Of a stretch of 64,000 nt of DNA, positions 652 through 64,000 are shown piece by piece; position 1 is the first letter of the stretch; every line of letters starts with the position of its first letter. The notes beneath the pieces are model-generated. The model saw nothing but the letters and a program-made list of their open reading frames with translations, searched no databases and had not been told where the DNA came from. Both the position numbers and the translations under genes were made by a program. This DNA comes from Phoronis australis. Its lineage: Eukaryota > Animalia > Phoronida. The stretch covers positions 401,873 to 465,872 of the forward strand of contig NMRA01000278.1 in NCBI GenBank assembly GCA_002633005.1, given 5' to 3'.

Positions 652-820
652 ATCCTGTGAGACACAATGAGCGCTTACCCTGTCGGACACAATGCTATTG
701 TTCACGAGTTTGACACAAGAGCCCTGTCAAACACAATGCCATTGGTCACAAGTTTGACGCAAGAGCTACCCTGTCAGCTCACAATCAGTGCTTACCCTGT
801 CAGACACAATGCCATTGGTC
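652..820. repeat. Degenerate tandem copies of the exon 64 donor junction
   Basis: (gctta)ccctgtcagacacaatgccattggtc recurs at ~673, ~722 and ~790. Confidence 0.8.
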
Positions 821-893
821 CAATCAATATGTTGCTGGTAGTTTTTTGTGCACGTTCCGCATGACTCACATGACTCCTTGTATTTGAGTGCAC
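796..893 (-). CDS. Exon 64 (ALKYKESCESCGTCTKNYQQHIDWTNGIVSDR)
   Basis: ttgcag| and |gtaagc, phase 1-0. Confidence 0.82.
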
Positions 894-3800
894 CTGCAAC
901 AGACCCAACCAGGATTTAATGATTCGTTATCGAGTGAGTGCAATATTCTTCATATTTCTAATGTAAAGTCAGACATGTTAAGGCCATGACTGGGGAGTCA
1001 TAACGGCTTTTGGTCATGATAGACCGACCCGAAAAACCTAGCCTCATTTTCGGGTGGGTGGAAATTCCTGAGAAAACCACAAACCATTATTTGGCTGGTA
1101 ACACGCTATTTCACGCCTACACACATCACCTGATGGCGTTAAGTTCCATTGGCAGACCAGGCGTAATTTCCATGTTTATTGCCCCTACAGTCTGAATGGG
1201 TAATGAACTATTGAAATCGCTGATACAAGCGTGTCACGTTTATAGTCCCTGTAACCCCTGAGATTCCATCATGAACATTTCACATTACGGAATACCGCTG
1301 GTAACCAAAAGATATTTGAGGTAAGACACCTTATCTGACTTCTGCAATTATGGGACAACGCTGGTCACCAAAAGATATTTGAGGTAAGAAACCTTAATTT
1401 TCTGATTTATGTAATTATGGAATACCGCTGGTCACCAAAAGATATTTGAGGTAAGACACCTTATCTGACTTATGCAATTATGGAATACCGCTGGTCACCA
1501 AAAGATATTTGAGGTAAGACACCTTATCTGACTTTTGCAATTATGGAACACCGCTAGTCACCAAAAGATATTTGAGGTAAGAAACCTTAATTTTCTGATT
1601 TATGTAATTATGGAATACCGCTGGTCACCAAAAGATATTTGAGGTAAGACACCTTATCTGACTTATGCAATTATGGAATACCGCTGGTCACCAAAAGATA
1701 TTTGAGGTAAGACACCTCATCTGATTTATGCAATTATGGAATACTGCTGGTCACCAGAAGATATTTGAGGTAAGACAGTCCCCTTATCTAACTTATGCAA
1801 TTATGGAAACTGAAACTAAGTTAAAGTGTCTGACTTCCAACACGAAAAAGTACTGAATTAACTGAACATAGAAAGTGCAAACAACAATACATATCTGTGA
1901 GTCATTGGGATCATATATAATGACGTCACTTCATGGAAAAAATTGCAAGGAGGGAGGATTCACAACAAAGGGAGGGGGATTCACAATAAAGGGGGATTCA
2001 CAACAAAGAGGGATAGGTTCACAACAAAGGGGGGTCACAACAAAGGGAGGGGGGTCACAACAAAGGGAGGGGTACACAACAAAGGAGGTGGGTCACAACA
2101 AATCAGTATCAACAATAACATGACAGACTTTATTTTTGTATTTAATAATGAGCACAAAATCTTGAAAATGCTGTTCTTTCCAAACCATTTTTCCACAAAA
2201 AGAGCTGAGCATGTTAACAGATGTCAAAGATAATTTTTTCAAAACTAAGCAAGGCTTACAATTTTGCACAATGTCACAAAATTCCTGCATTACAGTACCC
2301 CCAAATTCTCCATGAAACATTACCTGGGTCATAGTAGAGTATGGTCGGAATCTCCGTGCCAACCAGAGCAGACTTGTCAAATGGAACGCTTACGTCAAAG
2401 TATTCCACAGTGGTACCAGGCGTCCCTGAGATGTAGAAGTTGTGCACAATGCTGTTTAGACTGAAAAGATGTAACAGAGTTGTCAGGAAAAAATATGATC
2501 TGCTAGTTACAGCCCCCACTGTCAACACATTTTACTACTGCTTGTTACAGCCCCCACTGTCTTTGTTGAAGAGGAATGTTTTAATCATCATATGTTACTA
2601 CTGTATATCATTTCTGCCCAGGCTGTGACCTTGACCTTCCTCAAGTTGGGGGCACCTTTACAGGGGACAGCTATTAGAGATGGACTGACAACAAGATGTG
2701 TGTGTGTGTGTGTGTGCGTGCGCGGGTGCATGCATGTGAGTGTGCGAGTGAGCGTGTGCGTGAACAAGATATGGAAATCACTGTCCACTGAACTTGACGC
2801 TTAATGACAACAGCAGTTTCAAATCACGTGACTTACCGTCTCATCATACGTCGAGACTGGACGGCCATGTTATTCTTGTTATTCATCATGTTGATAATGT
2901 AACTTGGAGAGTCTGAAGCAGCCGACCCGTAGTTCTGGTCAAGGTCACTCTCACTGAGATAGCCCATCATTATGTTACCAGCACCTGTCAAGAGACGGAC
3001 AAGACGTCATAAAGCGGCAAATTGCGCGTCTATGAAACTGTTTACATATCAATGCTCACACATAAGGATATTATGTTTGTGTAGCAAACTTACGGGTGTC
3101 AGGGTGTATAGGCTGTACATCTTATTATCGACCGTTACTGTTTCTGTCCACAAAAAGGGCAAAACATGAAATCAAACATCTTAATTGAAAGTACAATAAT
3201 CCAGCGGAAAGACTTGAGGTTTTCTGACCCTCCAGAGTTACCCGCCTGCCAACTGCGGACGGTCCATCACGACACTATAATGTGCGATTGAAAACTGCCA
3301 GCATTTTGAGCTCATTGAAATCTTGACTACAAATTCGTCATCTCTGCACTGGCCACTTTTACTTTTGTGTTTACCTGACAGGTAGTTCTCTCCAATATGA
3401 ATGTTACATACTCCTCACTCATGTGTTGGTTGCATACTAGCAAAAATTTATGCAGTACAAAACTGGCAGTGTGTTATGGAGACGAAAGAATCTTGTGAAA
3501 AGCAGACCATGCAAGACCACGAAAAATCAAATGAATGAATTGTTATTGGTTTGTAAGACGGAGTGCACTTACTAACCCTACCCAAGCAAAATGGTGAGGC
3601 AGGGATGCTCAATGAGTGTCTTGGATCAACACAACCCAGCCAAGTTCTATCGCAACTGTCTTGGGTCGACAAAATGAGGCCCCACCTTATCACAACTGTA
3701 TTGGGTTAACAAAACCCAGCCCAGTTTTATTCCAACTGCAGAACCATCAATGATAATGATAAATGATTTGGAAAATGGATTAACCAACTGCGACGAGGTT

Positions 3801-6800
3801 TGATAATTCAAGCAGCTGTTTTAAAATGGGTAACCCTTTACTAAAAACAGTGATGGCTCACATCAGGGCATGAAATAACATCACCATTGAATGAACTACC
3901 CACTAGTGCACACAACTATGCCTTGCCAGTAACAACATCAGCTCAATGCAGTTATCTGCACTTGAGGCAGACAAACTGACATCATAGCACTCCTCTCTGC
4001 GCTGGTCCTTTCAGATGTGTTGAATTCGTAATCTGCGTATTTGAGCCATTTCTGTAAGTTTCAATCATGTGTTTTGCTATATGAGTGCTCTTTCAGAAAC
4101 TTCCATCATAAGTGTTATATGACAGCAGTAAACCTTAGAATAAGAAGACTTTTGAAGTAGCTAGAAACCAGCCATCCGATAAGAAATTTACTTGTGCTTA
4201 CAAAGTTGGTCTTAATCTAGGAGGAAGTAGCAGGTTGTTACCGCATAAGCCTAGACCTTAAGTTGGCTTCATGTACAAATTTACAAGCTAAACGTATGCA
4301 GGCAATTTAGATGACCCCGAATTCCCGGTCATGATGGCTGGCCGGAAGTCGAATTCATTACCAGGGAATGAATGAAAATTAACAGGAAGGTTAGCAAGGA
4401 GGTAAACCATTTTGTAATTAGAATTCTGTAGCCTTACCAGTTGATTGTCAGTAATTTTGGCTGTGAACAGAATTAGCCAATATTTTGTTTGATTGTTAGT
4501 CGGTCATTTTATGCATTGGTATATAGTAGCTTTAAACAGTATCATATTACCTAATGTAACCATCTTTCAATACTTATTAACTGATAATGACAAGCACTTG
4601 GGCACAGCAACTCCAAATACAGCACAAATGTTTCCTGAGCCAATCATTGTATACCTCGCACTGTGAGAGTACCGCCCGTTATACCGCTGATGTCCATCGT
4701 TGTGCTGGTTGATCTCTTCTTTCTCGAGCCACCAAGGCTTTGAGCGGTGTCCTGTGGCCCTGTAATGTATAATGTAGGAACAGCATTTATGGAACTTGCT
4801 ACACCATGACGAGGCTAGGCGAGGTGCTTTACCACACACGGTCTCTTAGGACATCAAAGGAGTTCTACAGACAGCAAGGTAAGCCTCAGTCAAGCAGCAA
4901 GTTAAGCCCATTTTAAAAAATGCCCAAGTCAACTGAGCTGGAAATCCTTGTTAGAAAGGACTGTGCCTGAAATTATTTTCACCAGACTAGGTTTATTCCA
5001 TTGGAAACACAAAGTGTGTGCTGCGGGTGACCAGGTTGAGTGGGGTGTAACTTGTAAAAGTAGATCGTCGAATACAAAGTAATGCAACTGCACAATCTAA
5101 CATTTTCTTCTTCATCCATGACGAAAATGATTGTGAAGGTAACGTAGGAACTTGAAGGATTACACTGATTACAGTCATTTCAATCAGACCATTATTACCC
5201 ACTTGGCCTATTGTCATGGTGATGAAAATTAATTTATTTATTTATTTTTAATTCAGTCTGTAAATTCAATTTATAAAATACTCCTTTAATTTAATTAACT
5301 TAATAATTTAATCAATTTATCTATAATCGTAATTTTTTTATTTTATAATTACATTTCAAAGTAGGGGACCCAGCTGTATATTAGCCTTTGGCTAAGGCAT
5401 GCTTTTTGTATCTATTGTATTTTATACTCTATAAAATATTAAGTAAAGTTTATTTTTATTGACCCAAGCAAGAGTGTGAGCTGCCCAAGCCAGTGTATCA
5501 GGATAACATAGTGTTATGCACGTACATAGTGTTATGCACGTACATAGTGTTATGCATGTACATAGTGTTATGCACGTACATAGTGTTATGCACGTACATA
5601 GTGTTATGCACGTACATAGTGTTATGCATGTACATAGTGTTATGCACGTACATAGTGTTATGCATGTACATAGTGTTATGCACGTACACAGTGTTATGCA
5701 TGTACATAGTGTTATGCATGTACATAGTGTTATGCACGTACATAGTGTTATGCACATACAAACAAGTCAACCAGTTGATGGCTCAAGTTCCTTAAAGACT
5801 GCATGCTGTCCACAAATACCAACCACAAGGGCAGCAATAGCACAATGTAATATAGATAATAGTTCTCACCAAAACTGTTTCTGAAGTAAGTTTTTCATAG
5901 ACAGTTTCATTCAGGGTTAAAGTTCACTTGCCATCAATTAGCTTGCCCCACAAATTTGAAGTAAAGTAGTTTGGCTGCACCCATAGTAGAATCACCTCTC
6001 TTCATGACTGGCAAACCGAGGAATTCAACTATTTTCAAAGTACATTTTATAAATCAAAGTGAGTAGCGACTGACTTCAACTTTTTGGATGCATATAATTG
6101 AATTACACTTTTTGAATAACAAATTACAGAACAATTCACTGAAATGCAGGGTAGTGTGTTTTTAAGGCTTGGTATATGCAATGGCTTCTGGCAGTTATCG
6201 TAAATTCAAATTCAACGTTGGTGGGGGTCAAAATCTGAAGTCTGGGAAAACTGTCCTCATCACTAATGTGCTTGTACGTACGCTTCACACAGATCTCTGA
6301 TTCACTAAGAAGGGTCTTAATGTGATTCTTTCCTTCCACTGTCAATCTTGTCTTCATGCAAGCCCCTGGCTCTAGCTCAAATCTACTTGGGCCGTTCAGA
6401 TTATCGGCATCCTCCACTGTCTTTGGCTTGAGATCAAAAAGAGACTGCGGACAGTTGACACCTGTTGGCAGGAAGTAGAAACAAGAATAAAGACTAAAAT
6501 GCACTCTGTGAAGCCGTGTGAGCACTGAATGCAACACAGATAGCCCAGAAAACTTCACCATAAAGTGTCCAGTATCAGTAGTCTATAACGGAATCAGGTA
6601 TACTGAAATTAATATTGGAATATCAATTTTATCAATTTCAACGTACCTGATTCTAGTTTTGAATGGTTTTGAATTGATTCAAATTGAAATTATACAAGAC
6701 TTTAAGAGATTTCATAGAGCTTTGATTTTTCACAAACACTTACAGGTCATTGACTGCTGAAGGCTTTAAACGTTTGTGGAGATACTGATTAAATTTTTAT

Positions 6801-9800
6801 GATTATTGTTAGAAAATCCAAGAACACATGACTTAAGGCATGAAAAAATTACGACTAGTTTCTATGTATAACTTACAAATATTAAATTATCCTAAAATTT
6901 AACTATCTAATTTACCTAACTCAGGTTCTACAACTTTAAAACACTGACAACAAAATGGATCATTAATCCTGAAAGAGTCCTTCAACTGTTTTCTTTAAAA
7001 CGACAAACTGCAATTTTAACAAACCAAGCTGTCTGCATGTAATGTTACATTTCATAATTACGTGAATGCTTACAGAATTTATTAATAACATAATACTATA
7101 AATATTATCATTCCTTCATCAGTATCACAGTTAATTTTTTTCTGCATAAGTGCACCTTCCTGTACTACACTGGTGAAGGGAGGAAGTTCACCACTTTGAA
7201 CAGCCATAAAGAGAGCCACAATAAGGAGCTACTATTTAGAAAACATACAAAACGCACCATCTATGGCAACATCGTTCTGGGCTCCGCTATTCACCTACTC
7301 ATGGGAGGTAATAAAGCGAGTATCTTCTCACCCAGCACCATAAACCCGTCTATTAAAATGCGTTTACAAAGTTAACAAAGGCCAACACGGACAGTTGTAT
7401 AACTAAAAAGCAGGGTTCAAAAAGCACAACTTTCACTAACTGTGCATGTCTACATCAAAAGGCATACTGGGTGTGAATGACACCTGTGATTTACAACCTT
7501 CTACAAAATAGCCTAAGTCCTCCAAGCCAAACATGACTGCTTGCCTTATGCTATGACTTGTAAACATGTGATGTTAATGTCCAGATATTTGTTCCCAAAC
7601 CTATACTACCTCAACAGCAGTCATATAACCTATGCTTGGGTGTTCCAAATTATTGTACTGAAATGTTACCAATTTAGGACACTATATGGCAGACACTATA
7701 AGCCAATGACTAATATTTCATTTTTTCATAAAAATAATACCAAAAGTACTAACAATTTCAACTCCATAGCACAAAATGGATGTGAAACAACCTTAGGGAC
7801 TTAATGGCAGTATGTACAGTCATGACCAATTTGACAAAGCCAGTCAATCAAAAGATGTTAGAAGAAAGACTGAGATCCCTACAGCAAATGTTAACACAAA
7901 AAGTTTAATGAGTACCCGTGTGAAATCACATGGTTATCAGCTGACTTGTGGATTGCTCAAGAATTTCAAATGTTTCAATCAAGTGAGCTGGCAACTAGAG
8001 AGGGTCTCTCACAACAAAACAAAACAGCGTTATGTTCAAATGCAGTGTCCACCATCAGCCAATGTTTCAAGAAATTCTGTACATTCAAATTAAACAGCCT
8101 TCAAAATGAAAACAATAGCACTTCTGAAGCAAATTATTCTTATCTATTTGTCATATATTACATTTTCAAGACCCAAGGTTTTTCAACACTACACAAAATG
8201 CCTAGAAGGCAATAGCTACGATAACTAAAAACACTTCATATCTGAGCCAAATAGTATACAACTTCATACTCCTGACATGTTAGGAGGTGCACTCCTAATT
8301 TTCAAAGGTACAAGACCCAGCATGATGTAAAGGTCAACATCAAAAGTAAAAGGTCATGCAGGTGTGAGACAAGATAGGTCAATAACACACCTCAGGAATA
8401 TGAAGTTCTATACTATTTGGCTATTTATTAAATGTTTGTCTGTGTATCTGCTGAACTTGATATCAACAAAACATACCATCATAACAAACCCTGCCGTTCT
8501 CGATGGAGACACTACGCATCTCAAAAGTACCAATTCTGGCTTCAGGTATCAATGTCCTCTGATTGACATCTTCCATGGTGATTTGCAGTACTGAAAAAAA
8601 CACAATTTCCCGTAAATTTGTCTTCACCTCGTATAGATTTGATATCAACAAGCAACTAATAACCAAGTCAAGGTCAAGTAGAATAATCAACATAATGCAT
8701 AACCCCTAGTATAATTTTACAAGAAATAACAGTTAGAAACACAATACTTGGCTATACTCAAACATGAATCAGGCAATTAATTCCCTTATCAGAACAAACA
8801 GCTCATTAGCTCAGAAGAATTTTATACCAATACAGAGTATCTGACATACGAATTAAAGCAGCAATAAACATGTTTCATCCAAGAAGACAACTTCTGACTT
8901 AAGACAATTTTCCTCTAGAAAATTGGTCTCGATTTGTACCTCACTCAGATGAGAAATGATGTCTAAGTTTGCAAAGACTTAACAGCTCATTAATCCTTGA
9001 GACAATGCTCCACTCATGAAATGTAACGCCATGACAACCACGCCACGACAACAAACTGTTGAAGCCCTGAAATCCCCTCTAATCTAACTACAGAGATCAA
9101 TTTCATAGGGGCAAGTGTACACTCCAATTCAAAAGTTGAGAGTGATGATGGCCATTTAAGTTTAGGAACAAGTGAGGAGGAGACAGTTTGGCCCGGAGTC
9201 GAATCCTGGATTTATTGGTTGTCAATCGAGCATTGCACAAAGCTGTCTCAGCTTTACTAATACAAGGTAGTGAATGAGAACATGGATTATAAGGCAAAAC
9301 CCACTTAAGGGGCAGTGCACCGTTTTGAAGAGTGGTGACCATAGTCAGATACTCACAAACCCACATAACAGTAAGTGGCAGGGGTGCCCAGTTGAATGCC
9401 ACCCTATTCTGAGAGTTTTGCACCAGGGCATTCTCCCCAAGTTTGCTGGTGCCGTTCACCACCGAACTCACGTTGGAAACATCAGGTGGAATGGTGTCCA
9501 GCTGCAGAGAAGGGAAAGAAAACCATTTACATCCATAAAACACTTTAAATAATCCACAAAACTAAAATTGCCACAAGAGGGTGCTAAAATAGACAAATCC
9601 GTTTGACAACCAACTGGCACTGGTGTTTCTTGACTGCCATCCAGTGTGAAATTAACTCACAATATCAATCAATGATCATGATAGATTAATGATTTTGACA
9701 AGGAATATCTTGTTGAAAACTAAAATCTCTACAAAGGTTCAAGTTTACTCAAATCTCACCAAGAATTCAACACTGTTAGCATAATTAATCTTTCTAATAA

Positions 9801-24800: not shown

Positions 24801-27800
24801 ACATGATCACCTAGCGCCCAGTCATAACCTGTAGATGACAACAACACGATCACCTAGAGCCCAGTCATAACCTGTACATAACAACAACATGACCACCTAG
24901 AGCCCAGTCATAACCTGTATATAACAACAACATGATCACCTAGAGCCCAGTCATAACCTGTAGATAACAACAACATGATCACCTAGCGCCCAGTCATAAC
25001 CTGTAGATGACAACAACACGATCACCTAGAGCCCAGTCATAACCTGTACATAACAACAACATGACCACCTAGAGCCCAGTCATAACCTGTATATAACAAC
25101 AACATGATCACCTAGAGCCCAGTCATAACCTGTAGATAACAACAACATGATCACCTAGCGCCCAGTCATAACCTGTAGATGACAACAACACGATCACCTA
25201 GAGCCCAGTCATAACCTGTACATAACAACAACATGACCACCTAGAGCCCAGTCATAACCTGTATATAACAACAACATGATCACCTAGAGCCCAGTCATAA
25301 CCTGTAGATAACAACAACATGATCACCTAGCGCCCAGTCATAACCTGTAGATGACAACAACACGATCACCTAGAGCCCAGTCATAACCTGTACATAACAA
25401 CAACATGACCACCTAGAGCCCAGTCATAACCTGTATATAACAACAACATGATCACCTAGAGCCCAGTCATAACCTGTAGATAACAACAACATGATCACCT
25501 AGCGCCCAGTCATAACCTGTAGATGACAACAACACGATCACCTAGAGCCCAGTCATAACCTGTACATAACAACAACATGACCACCTAGAGCCCAGTCATA
25601 ACCTGTATATAACAACAACATGATCACCTAGAGCCCAGTCATAACCTGTAGATAACAACAACATGATCACCTAGCGCCCAGTCATAACCTGTAGATGACA
25701 ACAACACGATCACCTAGAGCCCAGTCATAACCTGTACATAACAACAACATGACCACCTAGAGCCCAGTCATAACCTGTATATAACAACAACATGATCACC
25801 TAGAGCCCAGTCATAACCTGTAGATAACAACAACATGATCACCTAGCGCCCAGTCATAACCTGTAGATGACAACAACACGATCACCTAGAGCCCAGTCAT
25901 AACCTGTACATAACAACAACATGACCACCTAGAGCCCAGTCATAACCTGTATATAACAACAACATGATCACCTAGAGCCCAGTCATAACCTGTAGATAAC
26001 AACAACATGATCACCTAGCGCCCAGTCATAACCTGTAGATGACAACAACACGATCACCTAGAGCCCAGTCATAACCTGTACATAACAACAACATGACCAC
26101 CTAGAGCCCAGTCATAACCTGTATATAACAACAACATGATCACCTAGAGCCCAGTCATAACCTGTAGATAACAACAACATGATCACCTAGCGCCCAGTCA
26201 TAACCTGTAGATGACAACAACACGATCACCTAGAGCCCAGTCATAACCTGTACATAACAACAACATGACCACCTAGAGCCCAGTCATAACCTGTATATAA
26301 CAACAACATGATCACCTAGAGCCCAGTCATAACCTGTAGATAACAACAACATGATCACCTAGCGCCCAGTCATAACCTGTAGATGACAACAACACGATCA
26401 CCTAGAGCCCAGTCATAACCTGTACATAACAACAACATGACCACCTAGAGCCCAGTCATAACCTGTATATAACAACAACATGATCACCTAGAGCCCAGTC
26501 ATAACCTGTAGATAACAACAACATGATCACCTAGCGCCCAGTCATAACCTGTAGATGACAACAACACGATCACCTAGAGCCCAGTCATAACCTGTACATA
26601 ACAACAACATGACCACCTAGAGCCCAGTCATAACCTGTATATAACAACAACATGATCACCTAGAGCCCAGTCATAACCTGTAGATAACAACAACATGATC
26701 ACCTAGCGCCCAGTCATAACCTGTAGATGACAACAACACGATCACCTAGAGCCCAGTCATAACCTGTACATAACAACAACATGACCACCTAGAGCCCAGT
26801 CATAACCTGTATATAACAACAACATGATCACCTAGAGCCCAGTCATAACCTGTAGATAACAACAACATGATCACCTAGCGCCCAGTCATAACCTGTAGAT
26901 GACAACAACACGATCACCTAGAGCCCAGTCATAACCTGTACATAACAACAACATGACCACCTAGAGCCCAGTCATAACCTGTATATAACAACAACATGAT
27001 CACCTAGAGCCCAGTCATAACCTGTAGATAACAACAACATGATCACCTAGCGCCCAGTCATAACCTGTAGATGACAACAACACGATCACCTAGAGCCCAG
27101 TCATAACCTGTACATAACAACAACATGACCACCTAGAGCCCAGTCATAACCTGTATATAACAACAACATGATCACCTAGAGCCCAGTCATAACCTGTAGA
27201 TAACAACAACATGATCACCTAGCGCCCAGTCATAACCTGTAGATGACAACAACACGATCACCTAGAGCCCAGTCATAACCTGTACATAACAACAACATGA
27301 CCACCTAGAGCCCAGTCATAACCTGTATATAACAACAACATGATCACCTAGAGCCCAGTCATAACCTGTAGATAACAACAACATGATCACCTAGCGCCCA
27401 GTCATAACCTGTAGATGACAACAACACGATCACCTAGAGCCCAGTCATAACCTGTACATAACAACAACATGACCACCTAGAGCCCAGTCATAACCTGTAT
27501 ATAACAACAACATGATCACCTAGAGCCCAGTCATAACCTGTAGATAACAACAACATGATCACCTAGCGCCCAGTCATAACCTGTAGATGACAACAACACG
27601 ATCACCTAGAGCCCAGTCATAACCTGTACATAACAACAACATGACCACCTAGAGCCCAGTCATAACCTGTATATAACAACAACATGATCACCTAGAGCCC
27701 AGTCATAACCTGTAGATAACAACAACATGATCACCTAGCGCCCAGTCATAACCTGTAGATGACAACAACACGATCACCTAGNACAAGTGAACTCTCCTAT

Positions 27801-57800: not shown

Positions 57801-60800
57801 TATCATCACCAATATCACCATATGAACCAATACTGGTCCTTTATAACCACGACCAGCATCATCGTCACGGTTACGCTGCACTGCCTTTATGGTTATGGTA
57901 ACCACCATAGCTGTCGTTACAGTCATCACCACCTTGGTTTTTGGTGTCACCATCGCCATATTCGTCATGGTCATAATCGTTATTGCAGTTGTCATTGTCA
58001 TTAGCGTGATCATCACAACCATCCTGACCATTATCACCAATTTAACAACACCATCTAGTGTCAGACTTATTGATTTCAAGTTTATTGATCAAGAGTGGTT
58101 TCAGTGTTCTCCGCATTTGAAAACTTAAAGATGTCGGGAGCGTGCAAATGCCAACAAACGTGCCAGAAACAATTGATTACAATTGGCCTTCAATGTCAGT
58201 TTCAATGGCCTATGGCCAGTTAAGTTCGATTCAACTCATTATGTTCTTGTTAATGATCCCGACGCCATTTTCCAAGCTGGTTGCTATTTTTTAAACAGGT
58301 CACTCAAATGTCTCGCAAGGAGAGACAAACAGGTCGCGACGAAATTTACTTTGGGCTTCAGTGGCAAGCAAGGACTCTCCAGCGAAGTATTGAAAATCTA
58401 CAGCATCCGTAAGACAAAGCATCCAGGCACGACAGACAAGGCCAAAAGCAAATGTAGGCAAAATACCTTTTCCCGCCAACTTGGTTGGAAACTGTGATCA
58501 TTCATTAAAATGACAAGCAGAATGTACATACAGGAACCAGAACATACATACCATATTAAGCAGAATGCACACACCGTAAGCAAACTGCACGTAACTGTAA
58601 GCAGCATGTGCACAACTGTGAGCAGCATGCGCACACCGTGAGCAGAATGCACATACTGTAAGCAGAATGTACATACCGTATGAAGGCCTGCATCAGACCT
58701 TTCATAGCACTCTGCGGAGCCGAGATCAGCTCACCCAGGGAGTCGACAATCTGAGATCCAACCTTCTGGAACTGTGTTATGGCGTATGGAATGGTGACTT
58801 GAACAGAGTCTAGCATGGCCTGCCAGAAATGAGAAATTCATTCTCTTAACAACACAACTTGCAAAGAAAATGTAAACTGTTTGAATTGACTTTCAGTCAA
58901 CTGTCCCAAACAGTCACAATGTGTGCGCAATGCAATACAGTTTAATATGAAACCAGCTGATGGGCTGAAATAAAAATATCGACAAGGTGCTGTTTGTCAT
59001 ATTTGTTGTGTAGCAAATTCCAGGTGTGCCCTTCCTAATACTCCCAGCAGATAAGAGTCATATTGGTGTACAGAGGTTACATTATGTTGCAATTAGTGGA
59101 GGGTGGAAATGACCTTTGATACTATTAGAAGTATTATTACAAACATAGACCTATTAAGAAGGTAAATTTTGAATATTTTTAAAAATCATTAATCAAAATA
59201 AATTTGATGTAATATTGAAATTACCGTGATGAAATTTTCAATGTCCATCTTAATGTCAGAGATGAAGAACTTGATGCGTAGCACGACTTTGCGCACAGCC
59301 TTGACCCAGGGGAGACAATCGGTTGTCTTCCCCGTCCAGGATGCGAGTGCCTCTGCGGTCTTCACAATATTCTTAGGGAGATCAATAATGGTTTGCACGA
59401 ATGCCTTGAAAATACCCTGTGTTAGGATAGAATAATAGTAAAATGTGAGTGACATGTCAGAGGTTGAACAGGGGAGATAAAAATACTGACATATCAGTGA
59501 CAGAAAAAGAAAAGAATGAGAAATCTTTGTGCGACGTGTCACAAATCGACAGTAGACTTTAAAAATCATGTCCACAATTGAAAACGGGAGCAGAAGGTAG
59601 ATTTTGAGTGATACATCAGCAGCTGAACAGTGGAGAGGCTGATAGACTTTGAGTGACACATCAGTACATACACACCTCTATTCCACCATTTTCTCCCACA
59701 GTTTGGAAGATTCCCATGAAGTTGTTGACAGCCGTCTCGATGGGTGTGACGAACTGAGCATACAGGGTGTCGAAAATATTCACCAGGTCTTGCATAGAGT
59801 TGATGCCAAACTCCTGAAATGACATCAATAAAACTGAAGGATTCCGCAGAGCTGTGGCAAAATCCATTGCCAATAGATGTCAGGCTGATTGTTGGGCTAG
59901 GTGCTAAATTATATTAACATTACGTCTGTCGCAGGTTATTTACTTGAAGCTGATTGGAACAACGCACTTAAAACAACATGTCTGGCACAGTTAGATACGG
60001 AAGACTCAACCTTCACTTTGAGAGTCCATAATGTTAATGATGGAGAAACATAGCCTGCACACCCCATGCAATTCACCTGCAGTCCTTTTTTTGTTTTGGC
60101 AGGTGGTCATCATGACTCTACTGTCGTACAGTAGAAGTTTATACTGATATAATTTACAGTACTGTTAAATGCAGACCGTCACAATCCAGCATTGATAATT
60201 AATTGTTACCATACGTCTCTTGGGGCAGGTCTAAGACATAACAAAATAGGAATATTATGCTAGTGCCAGTGGCAAGAACAAGGCCAACAGAACGGGCAGT
60301 GGTATTGGCAGTGGCAGGAACGAAGCCAACAGAATGTGCAACAGTACTGGTAGTGGCAAGGGAAATGCTAATGGCAAGCTACCATTACTTTCTCTCAACT
60401 ATAAAGATATAAACTCAAAGATACGCCTAGGATGAACTGACAATGTGTTGTTGTTTGAGGCCACGACAGGCACACAACATGGCTACAGCAGGGTCAAATA
60501 AAACTTATTGAGCTTGGCTTTAATTGTAGCAATCTGACAGTTATTGCACCGTCTACAGATCACTTCCTCTTTGTCAGAATGCAACATTTACCTTGGCCAT
60601 GTTGAGGTTGTACCGAATGAACCCACGGAAACAGACTTGGAGCCTGAACATATCCAGTTTAATGTTGAGGATGCCAACATTAGCCTCAGCATAAGCAGTA
60701 TCGTAGATGTCAATCATAAACATGCCTTCAAGGGGTTCTGAAACATCGAGTATATAACGTGTTATAGATGTCAATCATCAGAAGACATGCCTTCAAGCAT

Positions 60801-63800
60801 AGGTTCTGTCACAAGCTGTATTTGGTCAGTCACTAAAGGTTGATCAACTCAAGAACTTGAGCAACTTAACATATCGCAAATACTTATGTGGCCGCTAGCT
60901 ACCTAATCCAACTTAAACAACCTTGGAAAATGGAGCAAGTTGCACCCAGATCAGGGTGATGTAAGTTACCTGACTGTGTGACCAGGCATCTGATGCGAGA
61001 CGAAAGAAAACAAAATTAGGTCATCCACCTTTGTTAATTGCGATACACGTGGCGGAGACTTCCTAGTTGCTCAACTGTGTAACCCTGGATTACCAATGAT
61101 TACAAGAGGCCAACAAACACTTCTGGTGACAATTTATCACTTTTCGTGAAAACACTCCAGTACAGTTGGTTTACCATAAATTTCATTTCATACATTAGTT
61201 TTCAAAACATGACAAATTTTTTCTCAAAGTTATTCAAGTTCCTTAGTCCACTGAAATTTTGGCCAAATTGTTTAGAAAATGACAAACAGTAAAAAGAAGT
61301 TTGACTAAAGCAAACATTAAAGTTCCAGGTGACAGAGTAGTTTTGCAAAGTTTCATCCTGAACACTGCTTCAGCACAACTCACTCAAGTCCAAGAACATC
61401 TTGTTGCGCAGAATCACTCCAAATGATGCTCCAATGTCCGTACTCCCAATCACTTTGGTCCAAGAGAAGCCAGGGATTTCAATCTCCCAGTGGAGTCCCT
61501 TTTCAAGAAACTCCTGCACGCTGCGTTTGTGTTTATTGGATGGTATAACTAACGAAGAGTTACGCCTACAAATTTTATAAGACTTGCATTTTTATTTAAC
61601 GGCATCAGGAATTCAACCAACCAGTCATCACTGCAAATTGTTAGTCTGGGCTCAACTATTCTGCTATTCGTACGGGGGTAATAAAACAATTATATTCTCA
61701 GCCAGGACCATAAACTGTTTTAATGGCTATGTGTATAGTTTACACAGTCCAACTAGGACACTCGTATGGCTAAGGAAACTGTTCCTAAAGAACTGCTTTC
61801 ACTAACCTTGCATGTTAATTTCAAATGGTCTGTTGTGCATGAAGGACACCCATTATTTAGAACCATTGGCAAAATTCTAAGCCACTAAGCAGACCAGTCA
61901 ACACCCCTCAAATTCAAAATGATCATGCTGATTGTTTTTGAACAGGATCCCAGCCAATGAGCTATATTGTCATACAGAATATGGCATAGTGTGTTTTGGG
62001 ACAAGATTCCTGACAATAAGTTAAGTCCAGAAAATGTTACGTTAATTTTCTGCTTCTTGGGTGGGTTCGCAGCCAATAAGTTAGAGTGTGGTTCAAAAAA
62101 TGATTTTTTTCCAGTGGTATAAAAAAGGCAGCGCCCAGACATCTGGAAGATGTCAAGTGGCTTTTGCTCTAAAGGGGCGCAGGTTTTGGGAACTATGTGC
62201 CTGATAGAATAATTGAGAAATTGTCACAAAAACAATCAAACTTTCGCACTGTGTTGCATTTACTGTACAAGATGGCAGCTGACAATTTACGCACAGAAAA
62301 TCTTACACCTCAGACTGGTTACTGGATGGGATTGCAAATGACCTATGCCTTGAACAATAAGCAATGCGAAATCTGCGATGGATTTTGATAAATGTCCATT
62401 TTACAAAATTTATGGACTTTACTGGCAGTGGCAACTAAACATTATTATTTCAAGCTGAACTGACCTTGAACTCCAATTATGTTCAATGCAACACTTCTGC
62501 AAGATGTGGCTATCATTTTTGGTCAACTTTTTTTAACCCGAACAAAAACAACGGCTAAAATCATCACGTGTTTATTTTTAATTTAAAGACTGACTATGAT
62601 GCAATGATGTTTTGTTCAAAATCACTCTCACCAGATCTGCTCACTTGACAGTGGAAATTTAACTTATAACCGCCATATTTTGAACAAAATTGAGAACACT
62701 TTACAAGGTCCCTTTTTGAGACATTAACATGATAATGTATCCAACAAAGGGTACTTGCCTGTATATGATATCTCTCTGAGAATCTGTCAGTTGATAACGC
62801 TTGGGATGTTCTGTGTACGTTCGGTAGGAATGTTGGCGGACGACTTCATTTTCGTCATGGAAACATAGAGTGATGAGAACCTCGGCTGCCTATAGGTAAA
62901 AAGCAAATAATATCTCATTATGTGACTCAAGAGAATTTTTTTCTACGCTGCCGAGCATCACAACTCTGAAATTTGATAACGTTATTGATACTGCTGTTTT
63001 GTCATGATTGCATCTCGATTTTTTCTGACAAATTTTACAAAAAGACAGGGTCATGTGATCTAATTTACATCAGATCAGTAAAAAGTCAAAACTCAAATTC
63101 TACCAAAATTTCTACTTTCACCACCAGGTGTCTGGAGAACACTACGCACTCCAGCGGGCTATTACCTCATCATGTGGATAGAACTTCATTGCGCTCATTG
63201 CGGCCCTACGCCATGCCGAGTGACCCTGGTTTGGCTCTGCGTATCTCTTGAACAGCTTGAACGAAGTGTGATGCGCAGCGTTGCCTAGAGCATGCAGCAT
63301 AATCATGCCTGTGTAGTACTCATAGTCATAGTCCATGTCATCAGCAGAGCGCTTGGTGCGATCTGAAAAACCAACAAGACAACCGATGACTGTTTTAATG
63401 GTGGTATTCCAAGAGACAGGCTGGTGGCAACATATGTAGCACCTGGTCTCAACCAATACACAAATGGAAGTTCTTTCTAAGCTCAAAAACCAACTCCAAT
63501 CTGACTGGATAACAATTTTGAGACCAATTTAGTAAAGTATGGTCTAAATCAAAAGAAGGCAGGTTTATAATCGTTGTATCTTGAAGAAAAATGTTTTAAT
63601 TCCATTAACCATAAGACTTATAACACATTATTTCATAAATAACGTAGTTCAGAAAGCAACACGTTGAATACTTAAAGCCTTAAAGCATACCATTATGATG
63701 CTCCAACCAGGAGGTAAGATGGCCGACAATCTGAGCAGCTCTCGCTGGGTTGGTTTTGTTCAGACTTGATGCCATGCCACCCAAAGTGAGGCAAGCGCGT

Positions 63801-63849
63801 CGGAGCGTCTCTGTCTCATTGGTTCTGTTCGGTAGTACTATGTCTATAC
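796..63849 (-). CDS. Giant multi-exon gene, partial at both ends: uncharacterized, probably extracellular, multidomain protein (vitellogenin-N/LLTP-like helices, M23/LECT2-like, PAN/Apple, many FN3-like repeats); >=64 exons, ~4,080 aa in window
   Basis: Manual exon chaining with splice sites and matching phases gives a continuous reading frame except across the N gap at 27782 and one junction at 61.5-62.8 kb; recurrent DxT/SPP, GxVxDG, WxxFxDxESG and YxxxVxAxN motifs. Confidence 0.92.
1289..1807. repeat. 63/67-bp minisatellite, ~8 copies
   Basis: Unit ggaataccgctggtcaccaaaagatatttgaggtaagacaccttatctgacttatgcaattat. Confidence 0.95.
1946..2102. repeat. G-rich 17-21-bp degenerate minisatellite
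   Basis: cacaacaaagggagggggatt-like units. Confidence 0.9.
2324..2460 (-). CDS. Exon 63 (LNSIVHNFYISG...PTILYYDP)
   Basis: tttcag| and |gtaatg, phase 2-1. Confidence 0.87.
2697..2763. repeat. (TG)n microsatellite with degenerate tail
   Basis: tgtgtgtg...gcgtgcgc. Confidence 0.9.
2837..2984 (-). CDS. Exon 62 (AGNIMMGYLSESDLDQNYGSAAS...RRMMR)
   Basis: tgacag| and |gtaagt, phase 1-2. Confidence 0.87.
4655..4759 (-). CDS. Exon 61 (PQDTAQSLGGSRKKRSTSTTMDISGITGGTLTVR)
   Basis: ttacag| and |gtatac, phase 1-1; different frame from the listed ORF. Confidence 0.8.
5507..5759. repeat. 18-bp minisatellite, ~14 copies
   Basis: catagtgttatgcaYgta. Confidence 0.97.
6282..6461 (-). CDS. Exon 60 (VNCPQSLF...LEPGACMKTRLTVEGKN...EICVK)
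   Basis: caacag| and |gtacgt (same donor type as exons 21 and 36), phase 1-1. Confidence 0.72.
8477..8590 (-). CDS. Exon 59 (LQITMEDVNQRTLIPE...VCYD)
   Basis: tttcag| and |gtatgt, phase 1-1. Confidence 0.78.
9357..9501 (-). CDS. Exon 58 (LDTIPPDVS...VAFNW...MWV)
   Basis: ctgcag| and |gtgagt, phase 0-1. Confidence 0.87.
9842..10083 (-). CDS. Exon 57 (TPYSMGAMW...YFVAVRATNVVGLS...KLK), FN3-like
   Basis: tatcag| and |gtgagt, phase 1-0. Confidence 0.9.
10546..10705 (-). CDS. Exon 56 (PAIYFIMVKAVSRSG...IDISPP...DYC)
   Basis: ttccag| and |gtaagt, phase 0-1. Confidence 0.9.
11195..11625 (-). CDS. Exon 55 (...CHYGLPFYDFESHIG...CQGCYSQCDFNCNASC...TFFQ)
   Basis: cacaag| and |gtgagt, phase 1-0. Confidence 0.9.
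12104..12319 (-). CDS. Exon 54 (YQHGRRNKVWYAKLWARD...WRMTLFENG...)
   Basis: taatag| and |gtttgt, phase 1-1. Confidence 0.87.
12725..12935 (-). CDS. Exon 53, Thr/Ser-rich mucin-like linker
   Basis: ctgtag| and |gtaaat, phase 0-1. Confidence 0.87.
13540..13754 (-). CDS. Exon 52 (MYGEALPIIEGKYAITVRIAGG...PTLPPE)
   Basis: ttccag| and |gtacat, phase 1-0. Confidence 0.88.
13868..13933 (-). CDS. Exon 51, 66 nt (CEGSNWPISVTPGNGFTLPTE)
   Basis: tttcag| and |gttaag, phase 1-1; symmetric, so not required by phase. Confidence 0.6.
14522..14726 (-). CDS. Exon 50 (LSCPDTRKL...MFMKCS)
   Basis: ttccag| and |gtgagt, phase 0-1. Confidence 0.87.
15433..15539 (-). CDS. Exon 49 (IGRVVDGKNWYKDATY...NYQQQ)
   Basis: tcacag| and |gtatgt, phase 1-0; completes DDIPPVIGRVVDG. 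Confidence 0.9.
16010..17257 (-). CDS. Exon 48, 1248 nt, about three FN3-like repeats
   Basis: Lies within the 431-aa ORF; ctacag| and |gtaaat, phase 1-1. Confidence 0.95.
17741..17977 (-). CDS. Exon 47 (TSVRASVRAVNVAGL...DVDYQ...WSIHRAD)
   Basis: tcacag| and |gtgagt, phase 1-1. Confidence 0.88.
18164..18805. repeat. 46-bp minisatellite, ~14 copies
   Basis: gtctaataaagacaagtacaggataYttgtacagcattttagataa. Confidence 0.97.
19120..19226 (-). CDS. Exon 46 (YEIALGNAESSTHFVPF...LSLTA)
   Basis: tttcag| and |gtatgt, phase 2-1. Confidence 0.9.
20099..20229 (-). CDS. Exon 45 (VKIVTPSKFP...VQWEPFTDNTPLDR)
   Basis: ttttag| and |gtaagg, phase 0-2. Confidence 0.88.
20349..20522. repeat. 29-bp minisatellite, 6 copies
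   Basis: ctttatgactgagtRctaacttaatatct. Confidence 0.95.
20638..20858 (-). CDS. Exon 44 (MAIAIGSSHNTSDILDW...VRNRVG...TANQ)
   Basis: tcccag| and |gtatca, phase 1-0. Confidence 0.9.
21077..21166. repeat. 29-bp tandem repeat, ~3 copies
   Basis: cagtctattctacactctgctaagtggaa. Confidence 0.9.
21499..21685 (-). CDS. Exon 43 (VFGEVTSQD...VDVTPP...DNESSLT)
   Basis: tgacag| and |gtgagt, phase 0-1. Confidence 0.9.
23147..23274 (-). CDS. Exon 42 (IGNVTMKYRVGGLPGSGDLKDW...GDT)
   Basis: ttgcag| and |gtatgt, phase 1-0. Confidence 0.9.
23666..23876 (-). CDS. Exon 41 (VFVTVRAITG...SDGFRLDSTPP...HWNSTDY)
   Basis: catcag| and |gtaggt, phase 0-1. Confidence 0.9.
24615..24742 (-). CDS. Exon 40 (YDWALGDIAGGSNIQPF...IQISK)
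   Basis: ctacag| and |gtaata, phase 1-0; its acceptor lies in the first unit of the 43-bp array. Confidence 0.88.
24720..27781. repeat. 43-bp satellite (~71 copies) organised as a 172-bp tetrameric higher-order repeat, truncated by an assembly gap
   Basis: Unit atcacctagagcccagtcataacctgtagataacaacaacatg; lines 24901 and 27481 are identical (2580 = 15 x 172). Confidence 0.98.
27783..28039. repeat. 65-bp minisatellite, ~4 copies, truncated by gap
   Basis: acaagtgaactctcctatactactacactccttggtSaaaccctgctcactacaacttgtgactc. Confidence 0.95.
28067..28300 (-). CDS. Exon 39 (VHVGLEEEEEE...WRGYDHESGIAKYMVAIGTSQGG...LALQ)
   Basis: tcatag| and |gtattg, phase 0-0. Confidence 0.9.
28917..29108 (-). 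CDS. Exon 38 (KFPLSG...YFFTVTAVNNARL...IDTSPPTMFK)
   Basis: tttcag| and |gtaagc, phase 0-0. Confidence 0.9.
29490..29803. repeat. 57-bp minisatellite, ~5.5 copies
   Basis: taacaagtctgtacacccacccacaccatggaatgtcatgcatattgcacata; 19-aa periodicity in spurious ORFs. Confidence 0.95.
30146..30380. repeat. ~60-bp tandem copies of the exon 37 donor junction (4 copies including the real one)
   Basis: tctcacctgtgtgRtg...ccattgtactgttgataga at ~30152, 30212, 30273 and 30332. Confidence 0.9.
30338..30452 (-). CDS. Exon 37 (YQKDDSSFHVSWEYNDPESNL...NGATTQ)
   Basis: ttttag| and |gtgaga, phase 2-0. Confidence 0.9.
31516..31786 (-). CDS. Exon 36 (FSDPESNVTKY...SNGYIIDLTPP...)
   Basis: cttcag| and |gtacgt, phase 1-2. 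Confidence 0.9.
32015..32125 (-). CDS. Exon 35 (LIDLTPPVQGTVTDG...ADWD)
   Basis: ttctag| and |gtaagt, phase 1-1. Confidence 0.9.
33026..33219 (-). CDS. Exon 34 (YYVRMGSTVGGKD...YYTMVTASNRG...SSNG)
   Basis: atgcag| and |gtaagt, phase 2-1. Confidence 0.9.
33671..33848 (-). CDS. Exon 33 (VDKSPPIAGDVLDG...CAQWRFFYDPHSGIS)
   Basis: ccttag| and |gtgaga, phase 1-2. Confidence 0.9.
34154..34330 (-). CDS. Exon 32 (LNLVEFGLGRSKYDV...WIRLQILNN)
   Basis: cactag| and |gtaaag, phase 1-1. Confidence 0.9.
34527..34695 (-). CDS. Exon 31 (GLNNVIFGGSLVTTVCHSYPLIIDVTPP...DTLS)
   Basis: atccag| and |gtaaca, phase 0-1. Confidence 0.9.
35299..35501 (-). CDS. Exon 30 (NWDEFVDKDSGMYAYTW...YYFTVQ), FN3-like
   Basis: tcttag| and |gtaact, phase 1-0. 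Confidence 0.9.
36091..36346 (-). CDS. Exon 29 (SIINPGPGRCTIIDFTPPDP...HRYIVDG...SYAN)
   Basis: ttgtag| and |gtagaa, phase 0-1; absent from ORF track (no start codon). Confidence 0.88.
36901..37044 (-). CDS. Exon 28 (VDLKQSAGWSYYERL...TNWLGYT)
   Basis: gactag| and |gtaagt, phase 0-0. Confidence 0.88.
38229..38429 (-). CDS. Exon 27, PAN/Apple domain (SPAACGGKCLSYGRKCISMEYNVVTKACLL)
   Basis: CxxxC...CxSxxY...CxL pattern; tctcag| and |gtgagt, phase 0-0. Confidence 0.9.
38724..38871 (-). CDS. Exon 26 (GSVTAFEDSPL...GDRYVEW...LNTLE)
   Basis: caacag| and |gtaaaa, phase 2-0. Confidence 0.88.
38830..39596. other. ~383-bp near-identical direct duplication around single-N gap at 39213 (likely assembly artefact)
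   Basis: 38830-39212 repeated at 39214-39596 with a few substitutions. Confidence 0.88.
40245..40447 (-). CDS. Exon 25 (DWTEMG...FFTVRAVNEQG...YDNTVPEGRV...), FN3-like
   Basis: ttgcag| and |gtaagc, phase 0-2. Confidence 0.9.
41155..41283 (-). CDS. Exon 24 (VAQIPDLDTTDTQFEL...YAVGDSEGSNNII)
   Basis: ccgtag| and |gtgagt, phase 0-0. Confidence 0.88.
41969..42203 (-). CDS. Exon 23 (GGMDLVLTPLRLEL...EDDSPPRF...FKRSGQPCQ)
   Basis: ttccag| and |gtactc, phase 2-0. Confidence 0.88.
42558..42786 (-). CDS. Exon 22 (FGAGGTVGAFMGVKLC...QQFPLDL), beta-rich
   Basis: tttcag| and |gtaaga, phase 1-2. Confidence 0.9.
43966..44131 (-). CDS. Exon 21 (MNMVEYLV...FFEFQWRFMAGPLPLKV)
   Basis: tttcag| and |gtacgt, phase 0-1. 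Confidence 0.88.
44481..44626 (-). CDS. Exon 20 (DEVDNALNARG...IRDAISEN)
   Basis: tttcag| and |gtaagt, phase 1-0. Confidence 0.85.
45180..45401 (-). CDS. Exon 19 (KIKEIDVDVSTT...QLCSSVMTTCIPD...LKCSINN)
   Basis: tttcag| and |gtaggc, phase 1-1. Confidence 0.85.
46221..46436 (-). CDS. Exon 18, Cys-rich (CPHFLGG...YCEPHFDCMGLTCAVP...DLCG)
   Basis: ttttag| and |gtcggt, phase 1-1. Confidence 0.85.
47301..47432 (-). CDS. Exon 17 (KFPVTNPVTWSPSSINRKL...FQAIYG)
   Basis: ttgtag| and |gtaagt, phase 1-1. Confidence 0.82.
48312..48457 (-). CDS. Exon 16 (TSKIWKIAERFDVGHYTLRF...VQACA)
   Basis: ttttag| and |gtgagt, phase 2-1. Confidence 0.85.
49056..49181 (-). CDS. Exon 15 (YRAPEPPYRPADVD...KALLQG)
   Basis: gtccag| and |gtaagt, phase 2-2. 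Confidence 0.85.
49659..49789 (-). CDS. Exon 14 (ECNDRIVTHLLK...GEFSNR)
   Basis: gttcag| and |gtgaaa, phase 0-2. Confidence 0.85.
50434..50665 (-). CDS. Exon 13 (GKPLKAGDGIGRMGTS...WIDPTKY...PRWVQ), M23-like C-terminal half
   Basis: caatag| and |gtaaaa, phase 2-0; KAGDxIG and IDPTxY motifs. Confidence 0.9.
51195..51322 (-). CDS. Exon 12 (VVAPVTGTYIYEKLPRERIRIEP...YNVKRSTR), M23-like
   Basis: ttgtag| and |gtaatc, phase 0-2; VxAPxxG motif. Confidence 0.88.
52408..52580. repeat. 56-bp tandem triplication of the exon 11 donor junction
   Basis: Donor GT positions 52444, 52500 and 52556. Confidence 0.95.
52557..52743 (-). CDS. Exon 11 (ANKALEIFEALFGPKFHKSFP...YGTGNYP...ASPHQK), start of LECT2/M23-like domain
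   Basis: tttag| and |gtgatg, phase 2-0. Confidence 0.88.
53040..53150 (-). mobile_element. tRNA-derived SINE head
   Basis: Minus strand tgctcagtggctaaagcgtctg (A box) and gggtttgagtcccggc (degenerate B box), then ttttcaggctttttcag; no intact acceptor stem. Confidence 0.6.
53454..53560. repeat. 16-bp AT-rich minisatellite
   Basis: atattacaatgatata, about 6 copies. Confidence 0.93.
53946..54103 (-). CDS. Exon 10 (GQQQKEVGLKFISAVLNLL...IDTIKT)
   Basis: tttcag| and |gtaagt, phase 0-2. Confidence 0.88.
54440..55000 (+). mobile_element. Decayed non-LTR retrotransposon ORF1-like remnant (CR1/L2-type)
   Basis: Translates to DQLVQHSWQNCLVVSSV..DGELTD, SDICKTHRL..AIIFQV..YVNESLT..C*AHDGKLF with internal stops; resembles the LEQYSRRNNL/HRLG/INEDLT/WTxDGKI motifs. 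Confidence 0.65.
54982..55164. repeat. 20-bp minisatellite, ~9 copies, at the end of the LINE remnant
   Basis: cagctgaacacggcagtagt. Confidence 0.95.
56432..56660 (-). CDS. Exon 9, copy B (same protein sequence; probable allelic false duplication)
   Basis: ttacag| and |gtgagt, phase 2-0; inside the 1.1-kb duplication around N at 57280. Confidence 0.75.
57556..57784 (-). CDS. Exon 9, copy A (AAMAMFMLMGAKKRIE...GLKKM)
   Basis: ttgcag| and |gtaagt, phase 2-0. Confidence 0.85.
58516..58680. repeat. Degenerate 20-bp repeats derived from the exon 8 donor region
   Basis: agcagaatgYacaYaccgt units leading up to the real donor at 58676. Confidence 0.8.
58677..58819 (-). CDS. Exon 8 (AMLDSVQVTIPYAITQFQK...LMQAFIR)
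   Basis: ggcag| and |gtatgt, phase 0-2. Confidence 0.88.
59225..59416 (-). CDS. Exon 7 (GIFKAFVQTIIDLPK...DIENFIT), amphipathic helices
   Basis: acacag| and |gtaatt, phase 0-0. Confidence 0.88.
59676..59813 (-). CDS. Exon 6 (EFGINSMQDLVNIFDTL...GENGGIE)
   Basis: tttcag| and |gtgtgt, phase 0-0. Confidence 0.85.
60592..60737 (-). CDS. Exon 5 (PLEGMFMIDIYDTAYAEANVG...YNLNMAK)
   Basis: tttcag| and |gtaaat, phase 1-0. Confidence 0.88.
61384..61548 (-). CDS. Exon 4 (IPSNKHKRSVQEFLEKGLHWEIEIPGFSWTKVIGSTDIGASFGVILRNK); 5' boundary uncertain (alternative acceptor at 61513)
   Basis: Open frame; |gtgagt donor in phase 1 matches next exon. Confidence 0.75.
62759..62889 (-). CDS. Exon 3 (AAEVLITLCFHDENEVVRQHSYRTYTEHP...), probable GC donor
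   Basis: cctatag| acceptor in phase 0; AG|GCAAGT donor. Confidence 0.75.
63166..63362 (-). CDS. Exon 2 (RTKRSADD...LHALGNAAHH...WRRAAMSAMKFYPHDE), vitellogenin-N/HEAT-like helices
   Basis: ttttcag| and |gtaata, phase 1-0; LxALGNA motif. Confidence 0.9.
63691..63849 (-). CDS. Exon 1 in window (IDIVLPNRTNETETLRRACLTLGGMASSL...WLEHHN)
   Basis: tatatag| acceptor, |gtatgc donor, 159 nt, phase 1-1. Confidence 0.85.
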
Positions 63850-64000
63850 CTATATAGAAAACACAATGGTTCTGTTCGGTAGTACTATGTCTATACCTAT
63901 ATAGAAAACACAATGGTTCTGTTGGGTAGTACTATGTCTACAGCTATATAGAAAACACATATTTGGTTCTATTGGGTAGCACTATGTCTATACCTATATA
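63820..64000. repeat. 47-bp tandem copies of the exon 1 acceptor junction (>=4, runs off window)
   Basis: ggttctgttcggtagtactatgtctatacctatatagaaaacacaat. Confidence 0.93.

What the first reader, a model, noticed from the sequence alone, without database searches (positions are those of the whole stretch)
652..64000. Systematic tandem amplification of splice junctions along one gene
Seen: at least eight intronic repeats overlap a real splice site, with units made of exon edge, splice site and adjacent intron. Donors are at 652-820, 30146-30380, 52408-52580 and 58516-58680; acceptors at ~10083/10180, 24720-27781, 60705-60810 and 63820-64000. In every case the functional copy is the exon-proximal one and the extra copies extend into the intron, from near-perfect to heavily decayed. 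Known: exon-intron boundary minisatellites ('mirages') have, as I recall, been described in amphioxus. Inference: either a mutational process targets junctions, or the spliceosome reliably ignores perfect decoy sites through exon definition.
Basis: partly seen in the sequence, partly recalled or inferred. Interest (0 to 1): 0.8.

Follow-up and report, generated by a model that had tools for sequence, protein, structure and literature searches.

The report
Splice-junction "mirage" repeats in invertebrate gene
In one long invertebrate gene, nine of 126 exon edges have been copied head-to-tail, splice signal included, into the adjoining intron; this repeat type is already known from lancelets and a human gene, and the spare splice signals are likely tolerated rather than used.

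Summary
The window carries a 63-exon minus-strand gene for a giant FN3-like repeat protein, closest to scallop and abalone proteins (31-34%) and likely not from amphioxus. All eight listed repeats span real splice sites, and a ninth (donor 56432) was missed. An annotation-blind scan finds 26 local arrays; 8 straddle a junction against about 2 expected (P 0.0003-0.001). That excess weakens to P 0.04-0.18 if junction copies stay recognisable 2-3 times longer, and the window was picked for this feature. 'The exon-proximal copy is functional' is largely forced: nearly every decoy gives a frameshift or stop. RNA confirms proximal use at only 1 of 9 sites, and the decoy there is weak. The 71-copy array is 17 near-identical 172-bp blocks ending at an N, so its length may be inflated by assembly. 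The structure is the known 'mirage' minisatellite (amphioxus; human F7 intron 7). The scan has noted it before on other DNA (45 notes, at least 18 genomes). One post-hoc lead: no junction unit is a multiple of three (0 of 8 against 7 of 18, P 0.06). Verdict: new member of a known kind, low-moderate interest.

The parts
796..63849 (-). 63-exon gene (both ends run beyond the window) for a giant uncharacterised protein with FN3-like repeats; about 78 aa missing at the N gap 27782
   Evidence: five junctions supported by RNA reads
636..820 (-). E63 donor (exon end 796) duplication, about 44-nt irregular unit; one equal-scoring decoy donor at 679 (+117 nt, contains a stop)
10040..10205 (-). E56 acceptor (10083) with one decayed copy at 10180 (97 nt), decoy AG intact and as strong as the real site; ends approximate
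   Evidence: not found by the blind detector
24720..27781 (-). E40 acceptor (24742) array: 43-nt unit (20 intron + 23 exon), 71 units in the assembly all with AG, in a 172-nt higher-order cycle; cut by N, length doubtful
30128..30379 (-). E37 donor (30338) array, 59-63-nt unit, 3 decoy donors in the copies
52408..52580 (-). E11 donor (52557) array, 56-nt unit, 3 identical copies, 2 identical decoy donors
56371..56452 (-).
58516..58685 (-). E8 donor (58677) decayed 20-nt array; one in-frame, stop-free decoy at 58575 (+102 nt)
60704..60813 (-). E5 acceptor (60737) with decayed copy at 60805 (68 nt); RNA uses 60737; the distal AG scores poorly
63817..64000 (-). E1 acceptor (63849) array, 47-nt unit (17 intron + 30 exon), runs off the window; identical decoy at 63896

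Best explanation
These are ordinary minisatellite-type tandem duplications in a repeat-rich invertebrate genome whose seed unit covers an exon edge, and they likely persist because the spliceosome keeps using the copy next to the exon. Shown: a unit of exon edge plus splice site plus intron edge is repeated, so the extra copies lie on the intron side; wholly exonic arrays are absent; nearly all decoys would break the reading frame. Inferred: units arise by slippage or unequal exchange anywhere; wholly exonic ones are purged; junction-spanning ones are tolerated because exon definition and first-donor preference select the proximal site and rare mis-spliced RNA is likely removed by nonsense-mediated decay. 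The apparent excess at junctions likely comes from one copy being held constant by selection (so the pair stays recognisable longer), a slight GC preference of arrays, and the window having been picked for this feature.
For: 26 arrays in 64 kb, 18 purely intronic and 0 wholly exonic although exons are 19% of the window. 14 of 15 donor decoys and 5 of 5 distal acceptors tested give a frameshift or stop. Homologue alignments show no unit-sized insertion at the six duplicated junctions they span (E5, E8, E9, E11, E37, E56; gaps of up to 8 residues near E9). RNA: 5 reads from 5 starts join 61384 to the proximal acceptor 60737, none listed for 60805. The excess is clearest among decayed arrays (5 of 12 against 0.83 expected, P 0.0007) and weak among near-identical ones (3 of 14 against 1.0, P 0.07). 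With GC tilt and 2-3x persistence the expectation rises to 4.2-5.7 (P 0.04-0.18). Same structure and silent decoys reported for amphioxus and human F7.
Against: Under plain random seeding 8 of 26 is well above 1.5-2.3 expected (P 4e-5 to 0.0013), and a GC tilt alone leaves P 0.001. The 2-3x persistence factor is my assumption, not a measurement. The old-versus-young difference is not significant (Fisher P 0.40). Four of the five duplicated junctions in the stretch laid had no listed joint, and the one confirmed site has a weak decoy (score -1.8 against 5.5), so silence of strong decoys is untested here. Earlier AI notes report the pattern in many genomes, which would fit a real bias, but they are unchecked.
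Confidence: 0.6

Rival explanations
1. A mutational process really favours exon-intron junctions (for example breaks or repair slippage tied to spliceosome-associated R-loops or to chromatin boundaries at exon edges), so junction units are seeded several times more often than intron DNA.
For: 8 of 26 blind-detected arrays straddle junctions against about 2 expected; both donors (5) and acceptors (4) are hit; three are young (92-100% identical).
Against: Among near-identical arrays the excess is not significant (3 of 14, P 0.07). Purely intronic arrays are not significantly close to junctions (5 of 18 within 60 nt against 3.2, P 0.19). One window, chosen after the fact. 117 of 126 junctions are untouched. 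The named mechanisms are my speculation.
Confidence: 0.22
2. Selection filters junction duplications by frame: units whose length is not a multiple of three survive because mis-splicing is cleared by nonsense-mediated decay, whereas 3n units are purged or absorbed into the exon.
For: 0 of 8 junction units are 3n against 7 of 18 intronic units (Fisher P 0.062; binomial against one third P 0.039, or 0.026 with the 97-nt pair). F7 (37 bp) and BflGb9 (157 bp) are also non-3n.
Against: Noticed after the fact, small numbers, and unit lengths of decayed arrays are approximate. Lancelet PGBD5 units are 60 and 108 bp, both 3n. F7 pseudo-sites that give no stop are unused too. Every third copy restores the frame, although most such here contain stops. 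This can act alongside the best explanation.
Confidence: 0.2
3. The copies are functional: decoy sites tune expression through unproductive splicing, or copy number works as a polymorphic dial.
For: Several decoys match the real site exactly (E11, E37, E63, E1, E40).
Against: Copies range down to heavily decayed, as neutral DNA would; identity of the E11, E1 and E40 copies extends over the whole unit, as recent duplication predicts; no decoy joint was listed in RNA (low depth).
Confidence: 0.06
4. The arrays are assembly artefacts.
For: The 3-kb array has 16 of 17 identical 172-bp blocks and ends at an N; two other N-flanked duplications (98-99% alike) look like allelic overlaps.
Against: The other eight are short, most carry diverged copies, and lie away from N; the four unit variants in the 172-bp block cannot come from simple read looping. 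This likely affects only the length of one array.
Confidence: 0.04

Closest known systems
Amphioxus 'mirage' minisatellites (Adh3, globins BflGb6 and BflGb9, troponin C, PGBD5). Read: passages of PMC3087553 and PMC3902484; the original Adh paper (PMC117041) is not held and was not seen.
   Same: Tandem units spanning an exon-intron boundary, on both donor and acceptor sides, 20-97 nt here against 10-160 bp there, many but not all copies keeping AG or GT, normal splicing apparently unaffected.
   Different: Host is likely a lophotrochozoan, not a lancelet. Nine cases in one gene. Allelic or somatic length variation was not tested here.
Human F7 intron 7 37-bp VNTR (PMC1557585; abstract and Discussion read)
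   Same: First unit spans the exon-intron donor; identical pseudo-donors follow; only the most upstream is used.
   Different: Donor side only and tested by mutagenesis. Here there are also acceptor-side arrays, where first-AG scanning alone would not predict use of the last copy.
Internal tandem repeats at exon-intron boundaries in human segmental duplications (PMC2812944; passages read)
   Same: Tandem repeats located at exon-intron boundaries that can alter splicing.
   Different: There the repeats often create new introns or alternative transcripts; no such outcome is shown here.
Uncharacterised giant repeat proteins of scallop, abalone, amphioxus and hemichordates (for example XP_060074374.1, XP_067664253.1)
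   Same: Colinear alignment over about 4000 aa at 27-34% identity.
   Different: No close relative found; Pfam gives no family for two window exons and only weak FN3, PAN and Ig-like hits for the scallop homologue.

Membership tests
mirage minisatellite | Tandem repeat whose unit spans a real exon-intron boundary | tested here: met
   Nine sites on a homology-supported gene model
mirage minisatellite | Both 5' and 3' boundaries can be duplicated | tested here: met
   5 donors and 4 acceptors
mirage minisatellite | Minisatellite-size unit (10-160 bp reported) | tested here: met
   20-97 nt
mirage minisatellite | Many but not all copies keep splice signals | tested here: met
   Equal-scoring decoys at E1, E11, E37, E40, E56, E63; degraded at E5 and some E63 copies
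mirage minisatellite | Normal splicing at the authentic site, no aberrant mRNA | tested here: inconclusive
   1 of 9 sites confirmed by 5 reads; depth too low for decoy use
mirage minisatellite | Copy-number variation between alleles or somatic cells | not tested
mirage minisatellite (as named) | Host is a cephalochordate | tested here: not met
   Window protein groups with scallop and abalone at 100/100, apart from 6 Branchiostoma rows; long branch and paralogues make this suggestive, not final. Host is where the name arose, not part of the structure.
junction-targeted mutational process | Excess of junction-spanning arrays among young arrays over a matched null | tested here: inconclusive
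   3 of 14 against 1.0 expected, P 0.07, one selected window

The most novel reading that the evidence does not exclude
Exon-intron junctions in marine invertebrate genomes are true hot spots for seeding tandem repeats (about 3-4 times the intron rate), and the survivors are filtered towards frame-breaking unit lengths, so these arrays form a natural genome-wide assay of how exon definition picks the last of up to dozens of identical acceptors.
Probability: 0.2. Interest if true: 0.55.

Novelty: new member of a known kind. Interest (0 to 1): 0.27.

Why it matters
As it stands it extends a known lancelet and human oddity to a likely lophotrochozoan and warns that such arrays can mislead assembly and annotation. 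If a genome-wide test confirmed a junction bias among young arrays, it would point to a link between splicing or exon chromatin and local duplication, and supply raw material for the tandem-duplication route to intron gain. The acceptor arrays would also be natural tests of exon definition against first-AG scanning.

Tried and rejected
No whole genome is held, so the genome-wide enrichment test could not be run. The word-indexed protein search (lengths 728-2075 aa) gave only 5 distant hits. The Atlas gave no result. No RNA holder was listed for 9300-17500; three same-species raw RNA runs were used instead. The first read lay (44001-64000) was swamped by high-copy repeats and showed no exon joints among the 15 of 96 rows printed. 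The second (50300-64000) listed joints at only 1 of 5 duplicated junctions; X7 and X8 gave almost nothing on exons; about 18-19% of each raw run was read. The sites at 796, 10083, 24742 and 30338 were never laid. The identity column was faulty (self-overlap) and was dropped; one search uses TRF percentages, with three arrays lacking a TRF row put in the 'decayed' class. Before counting I masked 57281-58405 and 39214-39596 as likely allelic overlaps. The per-base control was set aside as the wrong null because a few long arrays dominate it. The 65-bp array at 27783-28040 was checked as a possible junction repeat of the missing exon; it does not match the homologues' missing stretch by eye and was counted as intronic. 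Weak candidates (E29 acceptor score 15, E24 donor) were not counted. Paper searches for a genome-wide survey or a non-amphioxus 'mirage' report found none in the held library, which lacks most subscription journals. Supplements of PMC3087553 (repeat alignments) were not opened.

Full report
Gene model. The window is AT-rich animal DNA (GC about 0.39) with many minisatellites (43 TRF rows). I read the sequence (25301-27499 only through scripts) and built a minus-strand model of 63 exons from open frames and splice signals. With the E39 end corrected to 28067, it translates without a stop in two parts, 2298 and 1751 aa, split at the N at 27782. A scallop protein (P0019) aligns over model residues 54-2298 and 1-1698, with about 78 residues unaccounted for at the gap, so an exon is probably lost there. 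RNA reads from the same species label support five junctions: 52743/53946, 60737/61384, about 61565/62759 (a GC-AG intron in the model), 63362/63691, and 50434 to the next exon by a loose end.

Host. The best relatives are scallop and abalone proteins at 31-34% over the first part; Branchiostoma, hemichordate and crinoid members of the family score lower. In a 14-row tree of a 969-aa region the window protein groups with the three scallop and abalone rows at 100/100, apart from six Branchiostoma rows. The branch is long and the family has paralogues, so I take this as likely lophotrochozoan and likely not amphioxus. Pfam names nothing in two window exons and gives weak FN3, PAN and Ig-like hits for the scallop homologue.

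Observation. All eight listed repeats overlap modelled splice sites, and a ninth lies at the E9 donor (56432). Units are about 44, 59, 56, 37 and 20 nt at donors and 97, 43, 68 and 47 nt at acceptors. Copies run from identical (E11) to barely recognisable (E5, E56). The E56 pair scored 18, third of 63 acceptors, and was missed by the blind detector. The E40 array holds 71 units with AG intact, arranged as 17 blocks of 172 bp of which 16 are letter-identical, and ends at an N; its length may be an assembly product.

More than chance? Per base, no: 7 of 126 junctions had a strong local copy against 14% of intron control positions, but long arrays dominate that control. Per event, an annotation-blind self-comparison with a cut-off above the shuffled maximum found 26 arrays after masking two N-flanked overlaps: 8 straddle a junction, 18 are intronic, none is wholly exonic. 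If a unit is seeded at random wherever it is not wholly exonic, 2.2 are expected with detector periods (P 0.0007) or 1.5-2.3 with curated units (P 4e-5 to 0.0013). A GC tilt fitted on the intronic arrays gives 2.3 (P 0.001). The excess is clear among decayed arrays (5 of 12 against 0.83) and weak among arrays at 90% identity or more (3 of 14 against 1.0, P 0.07), though the two classes do not differ significantly (Fisher P 0.40). A junction pair has one copy held by selection and should stay recognisable longer; assuming 2-3 times longer plus the GC tilt gives 4.2-5.7 expected (P 0.04-0.18). Intronic arrays are not significantly near junctions (5 of 18, P 0.19). The window was chosen because it shows this pattern, and no genome is held for an unbiased test. 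So the local excess is real, but its cause is open.

Which copy works? Scored with matrices from the gene's own sites, several decoys equal the real site (E1, E11, E37, E40, E56, E63). Of 15 donor decoys listed, 14 add a frameshift or stop; one at E8 (+102 nt) is in frame and open. All 5 distal acceptors translated hit stops. Homologues show no unit-sized insertion at the six duplicated junctions the alignments span. Exon-proximal use is therefore what any surviving allele must show; it is not separate evidence of a special mechanism. Direct RNA evidence exists for one site: 5 reads join 61384 to 60737 and none is listed for 60805, but that distal AG scores -1.8. The other four duplicated junctions in the stretch laid had no joint reaching three reads (for E1 the partner exon lies outside the window), and four sites were never laid.

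Mechanism. Most likely, slippage or unequal exchange seeds tandem units throughout this genome (inferred); exonic ones are purged (absence shown); junction-spanning ones are tolerated because the spliceosome takes the first donor and the last acceptor (inferred from F7 and amphioxus work, shown here once). On the acceptor side, first-AG scanning from a branch point would not by itself pick the last of many equal copies, so exon definition is the likely selector (established concept, untested here). One post-hoc pattern: 0 of 8 junction units are multiples of three against 7 of 18 intronic units (Fisher P 0.06), which would fit a filter by nonsense-mediated decay. PGBD5 units of 60 and 108 bp and the unused stop-free F7 pseudo-sites speak against it being general.

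Comparison with what is known. PMC3087553 (passages) describes 'mirages' at both boundaries in amphioxus globins and Adh3, with many copies keeping AG or GT, normal splicing, and length instability. PMC3902484 (passage) adds PGBD5 and troponin C. PMC1557585 (abstract and Discussion) shows by mutagenesis that only the most upstream of five to nine identical donors in human F7 intron 7 is used. PMC2812944 (passages) covers boundary repeats in human duplicated genes. The original Adh paper was not available. Eight searches found no genome-wide enrichment test or non-amphioxus invertebrate report in the held library. The scan's own notes list 45 similar findings in at least 18 genomes; they are unchecked and I tested none.

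Verdict. Real, more clustered on junctions than a simple null predicts, structurally a known kind, in a likely new host group. Interest 0.27.

Noticed in passing
window 1284-1812 (+ strand; candidate exon 1191-1320): A 63-67-nt array of 8 copies each holding a strong plus-strand donor motif (score 9.7), preceded by a good plus-strand acceptor at 1190 (score 7.9). A donor this strong occurs in 13 of 688 random intronic 63-mers. It may be a tenth junction repeat belonging to an antisense or nested gene inside intron 62; no RNA was laid there. It was counted as intronic in the tests.
   Followed up: partly
window 54000-56240: Intron 9 is covered by same-strand RNA at depth 10-28 in runs X5 and X6 (none in X7), several times the depth on flanking exons, with no joint listed. 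It may be an intronic 3' UTR of a short isoform reading through the duplicated E9 donor (stop 9 codons later) or a separate transcript. Part of it resembles a decayed LINE ORF1 on the plus strand (recalled likeness, not searched).
   Followed up: partly
window 56139-58405 and 38830-39596: Tandem duplications either side of single Ns (98% and 99% alike); the first repeats exon 9 whole, the second covers the E26 acceptor. Likely allelic overlaps from assembly.
   Followed up: partly
window 61566-62758: GC-AG intron between E3 and E4, consistent with 5 RNA reads (joint placed within 4 nt).
   Followed up: yes
window 27782: About 78 aa present in scallop and abalone homologues are missing at this N; an exon is probably lost in the gap.
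   Followed up: partly
window 45946-47126, 53000-53150, 61674-61870: High-copy interspersed repeats (contig depth hundreds of times background in X1); parts look tRNA-derived by eye (not tested).
   Followed up: no
window 63691-63699: RNA reads show an allele with several different letters in the last 8 bases of exon 1 but the same junction (5 reads); RNA individuals differ from the assembly at many sites.
   Followed up: no
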